Shown: positions 9,415 through 14,219 of the stretch, one piece after another
Layout of the letters: the number at the start of each line of letters is the position of its first letter
Position numbering within the stretch: position 1 is the stretch's first letter
Source: a virus
Taxonomy: Duplodnaviria; Heunggongvirae; Uroviricota; Caudoviricetes
Direction: 5' to 3' (one strand)
Length of the DNA stretch: 42,748 bases
Virus record (IMG/VR): IMGVR_UViG_2695420651_000024
Program-made: the position numbers and the translations under genes
The notes under the pieces: model-generated
What the model was told of the DNA's origin: nothing
Database searches by the model: none
The model's input: only the letters and a program-made list of their open reading frames with translations

Positions 9415-10001
9415 TAGCCGCCCCCCAGTAATGACGCCACGTTACCCGTGATGCTTTTCAGCAGTGAAGTATCTGGAGGCTTGGTGGTTTTGTTGCCGCT
9501 GTTCTGTACCGCCGAGGTGCTGGCCCCTTCCTTCATGTTGGTTTTATCCGCGACGGAAATCTGCTGTGTCCGGGAGATAAGGACCTCCCTCAGGGTGAGG
9601 ACGGCGGACAGGACGTTTTCGGTTGTCTTGTCCGTCGTCACTTCCAGCGCCCGGATCAACATGTTGCTGTACAGTCGTTTACCGGTTACCACATCGAAGG
9701 GGATACGGCTTTCCTGCAGATCCAGTAGCTCCTGATACGTCTGCTGAGGACTCAGGCCGAGCAGGCTGGTAGCCGTCAGGTTACTGGCAAAATCCAGCAA
9801 TGCGCCACCACCGGCGAAACCAACCTCCATCACCACTTCTGACGGTTTTTTATAGGCATGATCAGCGACAGCGGCCCCGACCTCTACCGGATGCTCTGTT
9901 ATTTCAAGCATATCTGTATGCTTCTCTGAAATAACAACACAGGGAACAATCATTCCTATTTTTCTGCTCTGCTGATGAAAAAGTGTAGAGAGAATATCCA
10001 C
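9414..10001 (-). CDS. Phage tail protein immediately downstream of the tape measure
   Basis: 195 aa; position only. Confidence 0.4.
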   Translation of the reverse strand: MDILSTLFHQQSRKIGMIVPCVVISEKHTDMLEITEHPVEVGAAVADHAYKKPSEVVMEVGFAGGGALLDFASNLTATSLLGLSPQQTYQELLDLQESRIPFDVVTGKRLYSNMLIRALEVTTDKTTENVLSAVLTLREVLISRTQQISVADKTNMKEGASTSAVQNSGNKTTKPPDTSLLKSITGNVASLLGGG

Positions 10002-11989
10002 TAACCCACCCTCACCTGATTACTTCGCATGACCTGAGCATTTGCAGACTGTTGCCGACGTGCAACCTCATTACCGACAGCGTGCGGATCTCCACCACCG
10101 TAAATGTGGTAGGTATTTTGCTGGTTAACCTCTGTCACTTTGCCACTAATTCCCGCCACGGCAGCCTTATTAATCAGCTCCCGAGAATAGATATTTCTTC
10201 CATTCTCATGCTGGATAATGCTGCTCATCAATGCTGACATGGTTTGCGGATCGCTCATATTCAGGGCAGCCCGGGGATCCACTCCCAGTCGTTGCGATAC
10301 AGCCCTGATATACGCAGTTGTGTTGTTATTATCAGACGCAGGTGCCCAGGTAGAGATAATTTTCTCCACACTGTTTATTCCCCGTCCGGCGTACAGCATT
10401 AACTGACGAGCAAGAGCCCGTAATCCATCAAAAGCAGTTTCAAATCTGGCAAATCGCCCGCCCGGGCGTTCAAGAGAAGCCCCTGCCTGACCAGCAAAAT
10501 TAAGGTTTCCCGGATTGTTATTCCGTTCTCCTCGTTTCGTAGCCTGTGCATGTTGTTCCGGCTCATCATCACCAAACCAGCCGCGTACCGTCCGGCCCAC
10601 ACTGCGGGGATCGAATCCCCAGTGCTCTTTAATCCAGTCGGCAGTACTGTTAGCGCTGTCTGTAACCATCGGCATCGCTGACGGATTTTCGCTGCCCTGA
10701 TTAAGTATCTGTTTGCCGATGCTGACGGCATCAGCCCAGCGGCCATCTTTGATAGCGTTGAGCAGGTCGGCGATCATGTTCAGCATTTTGCTGAATTCGC
10801 CCATCTGGTCGATGAAGTTGCTGAAATCCCACTTCAGGGACCATGATTTGGGGTCAATATTGAGCAGTTTCGCCAGCGCTTTCACCAGGTCGTTAACGGT
10901 CGTTTTAAGGTCACGAACCATCTTCAGCGCGGCATCGACCTCCGGTTTCCACTTGCCCCAGTCAATCAGGCTGTCGCCGCCTTCCTTCCAGGTCTGATAG
11001 TCCTCCCACAGGAGGGCAATACCCGCCGCCAGCGCGGTAATGAGGCCAATCGGCGACATCCAGAACGTACTGTTCAGAATGCGCAGCGCAATCGTCAGTG
11101 CGCCAAACAGCGAGATCAACTCCCGCGTTTGCTTATCCAGCGATTGCCACCAGGTGATAAGGCCTGATGTCCCCTCAATCAGTCTGAAGAACAGCCGCCC
11201 GATAATATCCCCGAGCGCCAGAATGCCTTTTATGGCTTTCGTCAGGGTCTGCTCGATACGAGGGAAGTTGTCCAGGATATGGCGGCGCAGGGTGTCCAGC
11301 GAACCCGCAAGCCCCCCCGCAAGATTAGAGCCGATTTTGTCACGGGCCATGCCTGCCATCGCGCCAAACTCACGCAGGGAGGTCATAAATTTGTTGGAGC
11401 TTCTGGCCGCCTCGTCAGCATTGAAGCCGATAGCTTTCGCCATTGCGCTGTACTGCCCGGAGAAGCCACCCACACCCCGGCGCATCGCCATAAGGGTATT
11501 TTCGTCAATGCCCAGCATCTGCGCATACTGGTTAGCCCGGTAATACGGCATGCTGCTGAGTTTCTGTCCAACGCCCGTAAAAATAGCGGCCATGTCACGC
11601 ATGTTACCGCTGGCATCACGGGTCTGTACGCCCAGGCGATTCAGAAAGCCTTCTGCACCGGGATTGTTACGAATAAACCGGGATAGGCTTTCCAGAGAAG
11701 ATCGCGCAGCGTCCACGCTGCCGCCAACCTGCGAAACCGCATAGCCAATAGACTGAATTCCCTGGACTGTCGCGCCGGTGCGCTGTGACGCCCAGTAAAG
11801 ATTATCCAGGCCGGAGGCGATCTTAGCCGTGAAGGCCACCACGGACAACGCAGCTCCTTCAACAGCCAGCCCCATTTTGATGACATTTGCAGTTGTACCG
11901 GCGAGGACAGAACCGAACTTTTTCGCTCCTGCATCATCCACACTGAAGCCAAGCGAGACGAGGAAATCTTTAATAGTTTCAGCGTTCAT
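10001..11989 (-). CDS. Tail tape measure protein
   Basis: About 660 aa, Ala/Gly-rich helical protein with a central hydrophobic segment. Start set at ATG 11989 (MNAETIKDF...) preceded by GGAGAGAGG; the track's longer N-terminus reads through that RBS. Confidence 0.7.
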   Translation of the reverse strand: MNAETIKDFLVSLGFSVDDAGAKKFGSVLAGTTANVIKMGLAVEGAALSVVAFTAKIASGLDNLYWASQRTGATVQGIQSIGYAVSQVGGSVDAARSSLESLSRFIRNNPGAEGFLNRLGVQTRDASGNMRDMAAIFTGVGQKLSSMPYYRANQYAQMLGIDENTLMAMRRGVGGFSGQYSAMAKAIGFNADEAARSSNKFMTSLREFGAMAGMARDKIGSNLAGGLAGSLDTLRRHILDNFPRIEQTLTKAIKGILALGDIIGRLFFRLIEGTSGLITWWQSLDKQTRELISLFGALTIALRILNSTFWMSPIGLITALAAGIALLWEDYQTWKEGGDSLIDWGKWKPEVDAALKMVRDLKTTVNDLVKALAKLLNIDPKSWSLKWDFSNFIDQMGEFSKMLNMIADLLNAIKDGRWADAVSIGKQILNQGSENPSAMPMVTDSANSTADWIKEHWGFDPRSVGRTVRGWFGDDEPEQHAQATKRGERNNNPGNLNFAGQAGASLERPGGRFARFETAFDGLRALARQLMLYAGRGINSVEKIISTWAPASDNNNTTAYIRAVSQRLGVDPRAALNMSDPQTMSALMSSIIQHENGRNIYSRELINKAAVAGISGKVTEVNQQNTYHIYGGGDPHAVGNEVARRQQSANAQVMRSNQVRVG

Positions 11990-12166
11990 TATCCTCTCTC
12001 CATTTCTCAATGCGTCGCTGGTTATCCGCTTTTACCGCCAGATGGTCATTCAAGAGAGCAATGTCATACAAATCGACAGAGCCATCTTTAAGTGCTGTAT
12101 AAGGAATTAACCCGGCGTCAACCGGATTGAGAAGGTAGGACAGCCCGTCCGGCAGGCTGTTAAACG

Positions 12167-12619
12167 TCAGCCTTGTTGCAGGCTCTGCGTCGTGCTGGTA
12201 AGGGGTGTAGGCAAAAAATTTCCCAGCGAATCGGCGACCACCCGCGCCACCAGCTGCAGCATGACCAGCAAGTCAATATCATCAAACATCAGTTCGCCCT
12301 GGGTAAATACCGGCACCCATCCGTCCATATGACGCCGCGATACCACCGCAAGACAGGGATGAATAATCGCATCGGTGTCATCTTCGGTCAGGGAAGACAG
12401 TTCCTCAGCGATACGCGGGAGCATGGTTTCAAACACCGGTTTTAACTGTTCGAATTTCACGGTGTCGATTTTGCCGTCAGCAGGCAAACGGGAGCGAATA
12501 CTCCCGAAATCTGACATCATTCCTGCCAGCACCGGCAGAAGTTTGCGGGTCACTTTCAGCTGGTCAAAAACGCTGAGTTTTGCCGTGCGATATTTCACGC
12601 CTTTAATTTCGAATTCCAT
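12167..12619 (-). CDS. Tail assembly chaperone (frame-0 product)
   Basis: 150 aa, directly upstream of the tape measure; see the frameshift finding. Confidence 0.55.
   Translation of the reverse strand: MEFEIKGVKYRTAKLSVFDQLKVTRKLLPVLAGMMSDFGSIRSRLPADGKIDTVKFEQLKPVFETMLPRIAEELSSLTEDDTDAIIHPCLAVVSRRHMDGWVPVFTQGELMFDDIDLLVMLQLVARVVADSLGNFLPTPLTSTTQSLQQG
12212..12221 (-). other. Candidate -1 programmed frameshift slippery site (AAATTTTTTG) in the tail chaperone
   Basis: Minus strand reads GGG-AAA-TTT-TTT-G near the 3' end of the chaperone; the -1 frame is open for about 75 codons up to a TGA overlapping the tape-measure ATG (11979..11981). Confidence 0.45.
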
Positions 12620-12622
12620 GCA

Positions 12623-13063
12623 TTAAAACTCCCCGAGAACCTGGTCAATCTTGCCGCAGTCAAACACCCACGGCATCGTATTACCGGTTTTAGCGTTGGC
12701 GTTATCCGGTTGTTTCTGGAACGCAACACTGCGTGCCGTGATGATGTCGCCGCTGACCTTGTTGCGGATCACGATAACGTTATTCCCCCATGTGGCAGAA
12801 GACTGGCTCTGTGCGTTATACGCCAGCGACAATTTTTTATTTGTCGGTGATGTCTTCAGAAGGTTAACGGTAATCGTCCCGCTTTTATCTGCATGGAGAC
12901 TGTGCATCACTTCGCCATCAGCACCGATGGTCATGGTGTTTTTAGGACCGCCCATCGCAACCACAATCCCCTCTTCAGAACTTGCCGAACCGTACCCGAG
13001 GTCAATCGAACCTGTCGGCCCGGTCAGCGTCGCAGTGACATCCATAAAAGAATAGGTAGACAT
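12623..13063 (-). CDS. Tail tube protein
   Basis: 146 aa, between sheath and chaperone. Confidence 0.55.
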   Translation of the reverse strand: MSTYSFMDVTATLTGPTGSIDLGYGSASSEEGIVVAMGGPKNTMTIGADGEVMHSLHADKSGTITVNLLKTSPTNKKLSLAYNAQSQSSATWGNNVIVIRNKVSGDIITARSVAFQKQPDNANAKTGNTMPWVFDCGKIDQVLGEF

Positions 13064-13073
13064 TCACTTCCCC

Positions 13074-14219
13074 TTAGCGAACAACGTTAATCTGTACGTC
13101 AGCGTAATGAACCGCGCCTGCAAGTTTTATTGCAGCCTGAATCACCGGAGCCTTACGGGCTTCACGTTCTGATTGAGCCTGTTCATCCAGCGGCTGAGCG
13201 TATACGTAATAACCTTTGGGCAGTGTGTCACCTGATGACAACTGACCAAGGTCGCCCCCGTTCCATACGCCCGGAGCAATCAGTCCATTCTGAACGGCCT
13301 GATCCAGTGATTTTTCAACATTTGATAACAGTCGGGTAATACCGGCTTCAGTCTGGGGAACTTTCGTGGTGCTGGTATAAAGCAGGTTATAGAGGTTGGT
13401 CTGCACATAATTCTGTAACCAGTCCAGGCCGTGGCGTTCATCAAAGAAATCGCCGTTAGCCATCACTCCCTGCTGGAGGATAGCCGTATCATTCTGGTAG
13501 TACACGAATACATTGCAGTTTTTTGCATCAAGTGCCGATGCCTGGCTGACTGTCAGTGTTTCATACCCGATACCCGGCTCCTGCTTAAACTTGAGCGTAA
13601 TCGCGGTATTACTGCCATTGAAATTAACCGTGAATGCCCGGCCAAATGCAGATAACGCAGCGTATTTATTACCCGATGAATACTGAATAAAACTGCGTGA
13701 ATATCCGGCGGTTTTCAGTTTTGATGCCAAATCATCGCTGGATGCAGTCTGCAGGCATTTCTCATCGCTTGTCGTAATCGCCAGAATACGGCTTACAGAA
13801 GAGGATTCGATCGCCGCAGCCACTTTCAGCCAGTCTGCATCCTGAATATCTTCATCGTCTGCAATCCCCAGCCCATACCATGAAGTATAATCAAGCATGG
13901 CATTCACAGCCTGCTCCAGCGTCTCAGGCGTGGCCTGTTCGCTGTCTCCCTTCGTTTTCACCCAACGACCAACAAAAACCTCCTGAGGTTTCGGTGATTG
14001 AGAGAAAAACACCTGCGCAGCCTTATATTCTGGTGATTCCACGCCAAAATCTTTTCCAATATCTTCCGCGGCAGAATAACGGCGAATGCGCTCACTTACC
14101 GGAATGATTGTGGACGGGCCGAGAATGAGTAATGCACCAAAATTTCGCCCTGATGCTGCACGCGGCGACATGATCACATCAACATTAACAACGTTTGATA
14201 CAGGCAAGCCCTGTGCCAT
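13074..14219 (-). CDS. Contractile tail sheath protein
   Basis: 381 aa; position upstream of tube-chaperone-tape measure. Confidence 0.6.

What the first reader, a model, noticed from the sequence alone, without database searches (positions are those of the whole stretch)
11979..12619. Candidate -1 programmed frameshift extending the tail assembly chaperone up to the tape-measure start
Near the 3' end of the chaperone gene the minus strand reads GGG-AAA-TTT-TTT-G (12212..12221). The -1 frame from there is open for about 75 codons and stops at a TGA overlapping the tape-measure ATG. This is the conserved G/GT-type arrangement of tailed phages, and it explains the otherwise gene-free 156-nt gap between the two genes.
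Basis: partly seen in the sequence, partly recalled or inferred. Interest (0 to 1): 0.4.

Follow-up and report, generated by a model that had tools for sequence, protein, structure and literature searches.

The report
Tail chaperone frameshift site, P2-type
This phage's tail assembly chaperone gene carries a conserved slippery sequence that lets a fraction of ribosomes slip back one base and add a 77-residue tail, which is the ordinary two-protein arrangement of long-tailed phages, although databases annotate that tail as a separate small gene of unknown function.

Summary
On the minus strand, the chaperone gene (12619..12167, Pfam Phage_TAC_15) contains GGGAAATTTTTTG at 12224..12212, read in the zero frame as CTG GGA AAT TTT TTG. 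The -1 frame stays open from there to a TGA at 11981..11979, which lies 5 nt after the tape-measure ATG at 11989.

The -1 extension is coding:
- It matches Pfam DUF6889 (E 1.3e-20).
- Its codon-position variation matches that of the chaperone gene.
- It has no conserved start codon of its own.

I compared 123 distinct related sequences, reduced to 51 representatives below 92% nucleotide identity and drawn from many Enterobacterales genera. T_TTT_TTN is present in all of them, even where the Asn codon has changed to Ser, Gly or Asp. AAT, TTT and TTG are the only three of 76 conserved-residue columns that use a single codon throughout.

The same heptamer is the frameshift site reported for phage P2 E/E+E'. 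The homologous frameshift is already annotated in Klebsiella phage Mulock. I found no conserved downstream RNA structure.

Verdict: this is a genuine but ordinary G/GT-type -1 frameshift giving a 213-aa fusion. It is a new member of a known kind. The practical value is for annotation: DUF6889, often labelled 'NTP pyrophosphohydrolase', is the frameshift-encoded C-terminal domain of the chaperone.

The parts
12167..12619 (-). Tail assembly chaperone gene, zero-frame product (150 aa, 16.8 kDa), the gpG / TAC-N equivalent
   Evidence: ORF. Pfam PF21822 Phage_TAC_15, E 4.9e-31. PHROG 1688 'tail assembly chaperone', E 9.6e-62. Best BFVD fold match is a Myoviridae tail assembly chaperone, E 1.2e-9.
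12212..12224 (-). Slippery cluster GGGAAATTTTTTG: three overlapping zero-frame heptamers G_GGA_AAT, A_AAT_TTT and T_TTT_TTG
   Evidence: Among 123 distinct related sequences, G_GGA_AAT is in 111, A_AAT_TTT in 116 and T_TTT_TTN in all 123.
12212..12218 (-). Core heptamer T_TTT_TTG, the most likely shift site
   Evidence: It is the only heptamer present in every relative. It is kept where Asn is replaced by Ser, Gly or Asp, whose codons still end in T. AAT, TTT and TTG are the only 3 of 76 conserved-residue columns with a single codon in all 51 representatives. The same sequence is reported as the P2 E/E+E' site (PMC3091744).
11979..12212 (-). -1 frame extension read after the shift (77 codons plus TGA), the T / TAC-C equivalent; the fusion product is 213 aa, 24.1 kDa
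   Evidence: No stop in the -1 frame. Per-position entropy is 0.74/0.58/1.40 bits for codon positions 1/2/3, against 0.83/0.56/1.47 in the chaperone gene. No conserved start codon; the first ATG/GTG/TTG in this phage is 30 codons from the end.
11988..12104 (-). DUF6889 domain inside the -1 extension
   Evidence: Pfam PF21829, E 1.3e-20, 73.3 bits against a cut-off of 23.9, residues 41-79 of the 81-aa -1 translation. PHROG 4364, unknown function, E 1.7e-23.
11993..12001 (-). GGAGAGAGG, Shine-Dalgarno-like sequence for the tape-measure gene; it also encodes the conserved W-R-E of the extension
   Evidence: Sequence. AAATGGAGAGAGG followed by ATG is conserved in most relatives.
10001..11989 (-). 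Tape-measure protein gene (662 aa from ATG 11989); its first 11 nt overlap the end of the -1 extension
   Evidence: ORF. Weak PhageMin_Tail match, E 2.5e-4, below the Pfam cut-off. The same start is annotated in vB_EcoM-606R2, SEN34 and YP3.
12623..13063 (-). Tail tube gene immediately upstream of the chaperone
   Evidence: Pfam PF11681 KPP10_Orf10, E 8.8e-61.

Best explanation
This is a programmed -1 ribosomal frameshift in the tail assembly chaperone gene of a SEN34-like temperate myovirus of E. coli.

Most ribosomes read the zero frame to the TGA at 12169..12167 and make the 150-aa chaperone. A minority slip back one base on T_TTT_TTG (12218..12212). In that slip, tRNA-Phe in the P site and tRNA-Leu in the A site re-pair with TTT and TTT. 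Those ribosomes continue in the -1 frame for 77 codons to the TGA at 11981..11979. The result is a 213-aa fusion: the chaperone domain followed by a C-terminal DUF6889 domain.

By analogy with lambda gpG/gpGT and P2 E/E+E', both forms would coat the tape-measure protein through the shared N-terminal part. The extra domain of the rare long form would recruit the tube protein so that the tail polymerises to the measured length. Neither form would end up in the virion.

Shown here: the open frame, the coding nature of the extension, the absence of a start codon of its own, and strong synonymous-site constraint on the heptamer. Inferred: that the shift happens on the ribosome, its efficiency, which heptamer is used, and the role in assembly.
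For: - Gene order is sheath, tube, chaperone, tape measure, with Pfam matches for each.
- The -1 frame is open from the slip site to just past the tape-measure ATG.
- The extension matches Pfam DUF6889 at E 1.3e-20 and PHROG 4364.
- Among 51 representatives below 92% nucleotide identity, from Escherichia, Salmonella, Klebsiella, Pantoea, Photorhabdus, Serratia, Erwinia, Arsenophonus and others, the extension varies mostly at third codon positions of the -1 frame, exactly as the chaperone gene does in its own frame.
- T_TTT_TTN is present in all 123 distinct sequences. It survives amino-acid replacement of the preceding Asn by AGT, GGT or GAT.
- AAT, TTT and TTG are the only single-codon columns among 76 conserved-residue columns. 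Leu is TTG in 46 of 46 sequences and never TTA or CTN.
- No column of the extension has a conserved start codon. In this phage the first canonical start is 30 codons from the end, inside the conserved domain.
- The geometry is conserved: 14 zero-frame codons to the stop in 39 of 51, 77 codons in the -1 frame in 34 of 51, and the -1 stop within a few bases of the tape-measure ATG.
- Klebsiella phage Mulock has 'tape measure chaperone frameshift product' annotated with the same start and the same -1 stop.
- P2 is reported to shift at TTTTTTG without a downstream hairpin (PMC3091744).
- The G-T frameshift is described as widely conserved among long-tailed phages (PMC5009743).
- An analogous poly-T chaperone frameshift has been proposed for KPP10-like Pseudomonas phages (PMC12846349). 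The tube gene here matches the Pfam family named after KPP10.
Against: - No protein-level evidence exists for this phage or for any close relative that I could find.
- No conserved stimulatory RNA structure lies downstream. Single-sequence z-scores are -1.4 and -1.6; the consensus fold energy is -0.1 kcal/mol with no covarying pair.
- The heptamer alone occurs at chance frequency in the window.
- Part of the invariance around the site could come from dual coding in the two frames.
- RefSeq annotates the extension as a separate 54-aa gene.
Confidence: 0.85

Rival explanations
1. The same fusion protein is made, but by transcriptional slippage. RNA polymerase adds one extra U on the T6 run, and standard translation of that minority mRNA gives the 213-aa protein with ...GNFFAY... 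at the junction.
For: The universally conserved element is a homopolymer run of six or seven T. A DNA-level T7 variant gives exactly the 213-aa fusion. The title of a paper cited in PMC12846349 (Vladimirov et al. [quoted passage not shown]
Against: The review PMC5009743 describes bacterial transcriptional slippage on runs of 9 A or T; this run is 6. The base after the run is constrained: G in 117 of 123 sequences, and Leu is always TTG, never TTA. That fits selection on the A-site codon rather than on run length alone. The run is always in the X_XXY_YYZ register of the zero frame. P2 uses the same heptamer and is described as a translational frameshift.
Confidence: 0.09
2. The -1 ORF is an independent small gene (a 'DUF6889 family protein' of about 54 aa), translated from its own non-canonical start, as RefSeq annotates it. 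No frameshift takes place.
For: PGAP calls a 54-aa CDS here in E. coli genomes. Databases hold 28 clusters of standalone 46-78-aa calls.
Against: The called starts differ from record to record. No alignment column has a conserved ATG, GTG or TTG; the best column reaches 49% and is CTC in this phage. The RefSeq start corresponds to a CTG that only 8 of 51 representatives have at that column. Residues upstream of every candidate start are conserved in the -1 frame, for example the invariant P140 and P157. No promoter-like site lies in the gap. This reading leaves the absolute synonymous conservation of AAT TTT TTG unexplained.
Confidence: 0.03
3. The shift is ribosomal but takes place on the upstream heptamers G_GGA_AAT or A_AAT_TTT rather than on T_TTT_TTG. 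G_GGA_AAT resembles, from my own knowledge, lambda's G_GGA_AAG. This is a variant of the main explanation, not an exclusive alternative.
For: Both heptamers are in the correct register in this phage. They are present in 111 and 116 of 123 relatives. GGA is favoured among Gly codons, 45 of 51.
Against: Seven to twelve relatives lack them yet keep the -1 ORF and T_TTT_TTN. GGA is preferred but not invariant.
Confidence: 0.2

Closest known systems
Phage P2 E / E+E' tail chaperone frameshift (Christie et al. 2002 and Xu et al. 2004, as cited in PMC3091744)
   Same: Both are contractile-tailed phages with the gene between tube and tape measure. Both have a -1 shift on the identical heptamer TTTTTTG near the 3' end. 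Neither has a downstream hairpin. In both, the extension ends at the start of the tape-measure gene.
   Different: There is no detectable sequence relationship. This chaperone matches only Pfam Phage_TAC_15, and the extension matches only DUF6889. The products are larger (150 and 213 aa, against 91 and 142 aa). The rest of the tail module belongs to different families from those of P2.
Phage lambda gpG / gpGT (Levin et al. 1993; Xu et al. 2004, 2013, 2014, as summarised in PMC5009743)
   Same: The logic is the same: an abundant short form, a rare long form made by a -1 shift, a position just before the tape-measure gene, and a slippery heptamer without a strong stimulator. G_GGA_AAT in this phage is one base different from lambda's G_GGA_AAG (the lambda sequence is from my own knowledge).
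   Different: Lambda is a siphovirus and has no sequence similarity to this locus. The heptamer conserved across this family is T_TTT_TTG, not the GGGAAA part.
Klebsiella phage Mulock CPT_Mulock_014/015 (MN098327)
   Same: It is a true homologue: 59% amino-acid identity in the chaperone and an identical GGGAAATTTTTTG. It is annotated as 'tape measure chaperone frameshift product', with the same start and the same -1 stop as I derive.
   Different: That is an annotation only, and I found no paper describing it. It has a different host and 67% nucleotide identity over the locus.
Proposed chaperone frameshift of Pakpunavirus / Vandenendeviridae (Pseudomonas phage Adele, PMC12846349)
   Same: The authors propose a poly-T slippery motif near the end of the short-form gene. 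The downstream ORF is routinely annotated as a hypothetical protein. They use the same comparative argument. The tube gene here matches the Pfam family named after KPP10; that KPP10 belongs to Pakpunavirus is from my own knowledge.
   Different: The conserved motif there is GTTTTT. They are lytic Pseudomonas phages, and I did not test homology of the chaperone itself.

Membership tests
G/GT-type tail assembly chaperone -1 frameshift (Xu, Hendrix & Duda 2004) | Two overlapping reading frames located between the major tail (tube) gene and the tape-measure gene | tested here: met
   Tube 13063..12623, chaperone 12619..12167, -1 ORF to 11979, tape measure from 11989.
G/GT-type tail assembly chaperone -1 frameshift (Xu, Hendrix & Duda 2004) | The second frame is -1 relative to the first and has no start of its own | tested here: met
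   The frame relation is shown. No conserved start codon in 51 representatives, and none in this phage before 30 codons from the end.
G/GT-type tail assembly chaperone -1 frameshift (Xu, Hendrix & Duda 2004) | A slippery heptamer X_XXY_YYZ in the zero-frame register inside the overlap | tested here: met
   Three overlapping heptamers at 12224..12212. T_TTT_TTN is present in 123 of 123 relatives.
G/GT-type tail assembly chaperone -1 frameshift (Xu, Hendrix & Duda 2004) | The arrangement is conserved among relatives despite sequence divergence | tested here: met
   Loci with 46-86% amino-acid identity from many Enterobacterales genera keep the site, the frame and the end point. There is a synonymous-site constraint on the heptamer.
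G/GT-type tail assembly chaperone -1 frameshift (Xu, Hendrix & Duda 2004) | A fusion protein is actually made at a low fixed ratio and is required for tail assembly | not testable with these tools
   This needs proteomics, reporter assays and phage genetics. I found no such data for this family.
Phage P2 gpE / gpE+E' protein family | Sequence homology of the chaperone to P2 gpE | tested here: not met
   A Pfam scan at E <= 0.01 returns only PF21822 for the chaperone and only PF21829 for the extension. I did not run a direct pairwise comparison with P2 gpE.
Phage P2 gpE / gpE+E' protein family | Shift site TTTTTTG without a downstream hairpin | tested here: met
   Heptamer at 12218..12212. No conserved structure downstream. 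The P2 description is from PMC3091744.
Pfam PF21822 Phage_TAC_15 | Score above the family's gathering threshold | tested here: met
   108.3 bits against a cut-off of 22, covering profile positions 1-122 of 127.
Pfam PF21829 DUF6889 | Score above the family's gathering threshold | tested here: met
   73.3 bits against a cut-off of 23.9, covering profile positions 2-40 of 40, on the -1 frame translation.
Programmed transcriptional slippage | A long homopolymer run (bacterial slippage is described on runs of 9 A or T) | tested here: not met
   The run is T6 here and T6 or T7 in the relatives. The criterion is from PMC5009743.
Structure-stimulated bacterial frameshift sites (dnaX and IS-element type) | A conserved downstream hairpin or pseudoknot | tested here: not met
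   z-scores of -1.40 and -1.58. RNAalifold consensus of -0.1 kcal/mol with 0 covarying pairs in 25 sequences. No Rfam match.

The most novel reading that the evidence does not exclude
The long form would be made mainly by RNA polymerase slippage on the short T6 run, or by a mixture of transcriptional and ribosomal slippage over the triple-overlapping GGGAAATTTTTTG cluster. That would give two junction variants (...GNFL-AY... and ...GNFF-AY...). It would make this very widespread Enterobacterales prophage family a tractable case of a mechanism other than classical frameshifting for chaperone long forms, as the title of the Vladimirov et al. 2022 paper on T4-like phages suggests. Separately, the extension behaves as an exchangeable cassette between otherwise 97-100% identical tail modules. 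If the extension binds the tube protein, two alleles that differ strongly outside a shared conserved core serve the same tube, which would make the recognition surface directly mappable.
Probability: 0.1. Interest if true: 0.4.

Novelty: new member of a known kind. Interest (0 to 1): 0.2.

Why it matters
The biology is textbook, so the value lies in annotation. Pfam DUF6889 and PHROG 4364 are listed as having unknown function. Hundreds of E. coli and Salmonella records label the small ORF 'DUF6889 family protein' or, spuriously, 'NTP pyrophosphohydrolase'. These are the frameshift-encoded C-terminal domain of the tail assembly chaperone of SEN34-like myoviruses. This prophage family is present in 368 of 5,426 complete E. 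coli genomes, and those records lack the 213-aa product. The comparative data also point to T_TTT_TTG as the conserved shift site and yield a junction peptide that tells the candidate mechanisms apart.

Tried and rejected
- **Downstream stimulatory structure.** Single-sequence folds of 62 and 112 nt are not better than shuffles. A 25-sequence consensus fold is empty.
- **Known RNA families.** Rfam returns only a chance miRNA match at E 0.98.
- **Promoter or terminator in the gap.** No promoter-like site. One terminator-like site, which equals the chance expectation.
- **Internal duplication.** MAFFT aligned the extension with chaperone residues 59-101. BLASTP gives E 0.18, and the profile-profile comparison gives probability 0.1%. 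I rejected this idea.
- **Structure.** The AlphaFold2 model of the fused variant P0001 has mean pLDDT 61. The chaperone domain is moderately confident and the extension is below 50, because the alignment had no rows covering it. Foldseek against the PDB found nothing at E <= 0.001. A sequence search of the PDB found nothing. BFVD gave Myoviridae tail assembly chaperones, which only confirms the family.
- **In-frame fusions in databases.** The P0001 cluster has 16 members. The junctions are T7, an apparent T4, or paired indels, which looks like homopolymer sequencing error. The cluster is also tiny next to the 1,014-member cluster of the 150-aa form. I do not count it as independent evidence.
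- **Upstream Shine-Dalgarno-like stimulator.** GGGTGG lies 13 nt before G_GGA_AAT, but it is not kept at a fixed position in diverged relatives. I make no claim for it.
- **Empirical length distribution of -1 frame read-through after stop codons.** The result is confounded by overlapping downstream genes and is uninformative.
Full report
**What is in the sequence**

All genes in this stretch are on the minus strand:

| Gene | Coordinates | Pfam match |
|---|---|---|
| Sheath | 14219..13074 | DUF3383 |
| Tube | 13063..12623 | KPP10_Orf10, E 8.8e-61 |
| 150-aa ORF | 12619..12167 | Phage_TAC_15 (tail assembly chaperone), E 4.9e-31 |
| Tape measure | ATG 11989 to 10001 | weak PhageMin_Tail match, below cut-off |
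| Downstream proteins | | Dit_like, Pam3_gp18, E217_GP41-like (the last weak, below cut-off) |

The motif GGGAAATTTTTTG lies at 12224..12212. The zero frame reads it as CTG GGA AAT TTT TTG (Leu-Gly-Asn-Phe-Leu). It therefore holds three overlapping heptamers in the X_XXY_YYZ register: G_GGA_AAT, A_AAT_TTT and T_TTT_TTG.

The -1 frame has no stop from 12224 to the TGA at 11981..11979. That TGA is 5 nt beyond the tape-measure ATG (11989..11987), so it does not sit on the ATG. With the ATG start, which has GGAGAGAGG just upstream and is the start annotated in relatives, the apparently empty gap is 177 nt.

**Is it more than chance?**

The heptamer by itself is not. TTTTTTG occurs 10 times in the window against 11.4 expected. 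The evidence lies elsewhere.

**The -1 frame is coding**

- Its translation matches Pfam DUF6889 at E 1.3e-20 (73.3 bits, cut-off 23.9).
- It also matches PHROG 4364, a family of unknown function.
- I collected 152 related loci: annotated phages, one Logan contig, IMG/VR and one genome per species. After setting aside cut or decayed loci they gave 123 distinct sequences, and 51 representatives below 92% nucleotide identity.
- These span Escherichia, Salmonella, Klebsiella, Enterobacter, Pantoea, Erwinia, Photorhabdus, Serratia, Arsenophonus and others.
- In the part of the extension beyond the zero-frame stop, mean column entropy is 0.74, 0.58 and 1.40 bits at codon positions 1, 2 and 3 of the -1 frame. 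The chaperone gene gives 0.83, 0.56 and 1.47 in its own frame. This is the signature of purifying selection on a protein read in the -1 frame.

**The extension cannot start on its own**

- No alignment column of the extension carries a conserved ATG, GTG or TTG. The best column reaches 49% and is CTC in this phage.
- In this phage the first canonical start is only 30 codons from the end, inside the conserved domain.
- Database entries for DUF6889 are standalone calls of 46-78 aa with differing, caller-dependent starts. Many are named 'NTP pyrophosphohydrolase'.
- RefSeq places a 54-aa 'DUF6889 family protein' on a CTG. Only 8 of 51 representatives have CTG at that column.

**The slip site is under selection as nucleotide sequence**

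- T_TTT_TTN is present in all 123 distinct sequences: TTG in 117, TTT in 5 and TTC in 1.
- G_GGA_AAT is present in 111 and A_AAT_TTT in 116.
- Where the Asn is replaced, the new codons are AGT, GGT or GAT, so the T that begins the heptamer is kept.
- Among 76 columns with a conserved residue and a degenerate codon, only three use a single codon in all representatives. They are the consecutive AAT, TTT and TTG. Leu is TTG in 46 of 46 sequences. The median codon entropy elsewhere is 1.52 bits.
- The geometry is also conserved. There are 14 zero-frame codons from the site to the stop in 39 of 51, and 77 codons in the -1 frame in 34 of 51. The -1 stop falls within a few bases of the tape-measure ATG.

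**Mechanism**

The best-supported reading is a -1 ribosomal frameshift on T_TTT_TTG. It gives a 213-aa, 24.1-kDa fusion alongside the 150-aa, 16.8-kDa chaperone.

- The same heptamer is reported as the P2 E/E+E' site, also without a downstream hairpin (PMC3091744).
- I found no stimulatory structure here. Fold z-scores are -1.4 and -1.6. The consensus fold of 25 diverse sequences is empty. Rfam gives nothing.
- The functional model is inferred from lambda (PMC5009743) and was not tested here. In that model both forms bind the tape measure, and the extra domain of the rare form recruits the tube subunit.
- The review states that efficiency in P2-like phages is two to three times that of lambda. 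By analogy only, this site might behave similarly.

**Rivals**

- *Transcriptional slippage on the T6 run.* This would give the same frame change. However, the run is short compared with the 9-base runs described for bacteria. The base after the run is also constrained. I give it about 0.09. The junction residue separates the two mechanisms: Leu at position 136 can only come from a ribosomal shift on T_TTT_TTG, whereas Phe would come from the upstream heptamers or from an extra U.
- *An independent small gene.* This is contradicted by the start-codon analysis and leaves the synonymous constraint unexplained. I give it about 0.03.

**Comparison with what is known**

- The arrangement is the conserved G/GT-type chaperone frameshift of long-tailed phages.
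- The homologous gene of Klebsiella phage Mulock is already annotated 'tape measure chaperone frameshift product', with the same start and -1 stop that I derive.
- Four E. coli phages are 99.8% identical to the window over this locus (vB_EcoM-606R2, -689R2, -611R5, -683R1). The record of 606R2, which I inspected, lacks the annotation, and the features listed for the other three are all 'hypothetical protein'. The SEN34 and YP3 records and the RefSeq E. coli genomes I looked at lack it as well.
- The SEN34 paper describes a temperate myovirus with lambda-like regulatory genes and does not mention a frameshift (PMC5261728).
- A similar poly-T chaperone frameshift was recently argued for KPP10-like Pseudomonas phages on the same comparative grounds (PMC12846349).
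- The phage is not Mu- or P2-like at the protein level: Pfam finds only Phage_TAC_15 and DUF6889.

**Verdict**

This is a new member of a well-known kind, of low surprise to a specialist. The useful outcomes are:
- the reassignment of DUF6889 and PHROG 4364 as the frameshift-encoded domain of the chaperone;
- the identification of T_TTT_TTG as the conserved site;
- a concrete peptide test.

The prophage family is common, with matches in 368 of 5,426 complete E. coli genomes.

Noticed in passing
window 11990..12212 (minus strand); loci L073, L075, L077 offsets +400..+600 from the chaperone start: In three IMG/VR E. coli prophage loci, the sheath, the tube, the chaperone up to the slip site and the start of the tape-measure gene are about 90-100% identical to the window (L077 diverges further inside the tape-measure gene). 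The roughly 200 nt of the -1 extension is a different allele there, only 48% identical in a 150-nt window, and is of the type seen in L101 and L152. The extension therefore appears to be exchanged as a cassette bounded by the conserved slip site and the tape-measure start.
   Followed up: partly
window 12143..11979 (minus strand); L153 1758..1922: RefSeq annotates the extension as a separate 54-aa 'DUF6889 family protein', apparently starting on a CTG. Older GenBank records name the same ORF 'NTP pyrophosphohydrolase', which has no support in the sequence.
   Followed up: yes
L005 2477..2489 (Logan SRR23924998); proteins P0001, P0149-P0161: A small cluster of database proteins of 212-213 aa are in-frame chaperone-DUF6889 fusions. 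They include CDL28562.1 from E. coli ISC7. They arise from a T7 run, an apparent T4 run, or paired indels near the run. The pattern looks like homopolymer sequencing error rather than natural fused alleles.
   Followed up: partly
window 11993..12001 (minus strand): The conserved Trp-Arg-Glu near the end of the extension is encoded by TGGAGAGAGG. The same bases are the Shine-Dalgarno-like sequence of the tape-measure gene. Its invariance may therefore reflect two constraints at once.
   Followed up: no
L119, L134, L093: Three prophage copies break the pattern. In Enterobacter sp. R1 the extension is truncated. In Izhakiella australiensis the -1 ORF runs on for 273 codons into unrelated sequence. 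In Apirhabdus apintestini the chaperone has an early stop. These are probably decayed or rearranged prophages.
   Followed up: no
window 10001..12010 (minus strand): The mechanical ORF list starts the tape-measure gene at TTG 12010 (669 aa). The ATG at 11989 (662 aa) has the ribosome-binding sequence and is the start used in related records.
   Followed up: yes
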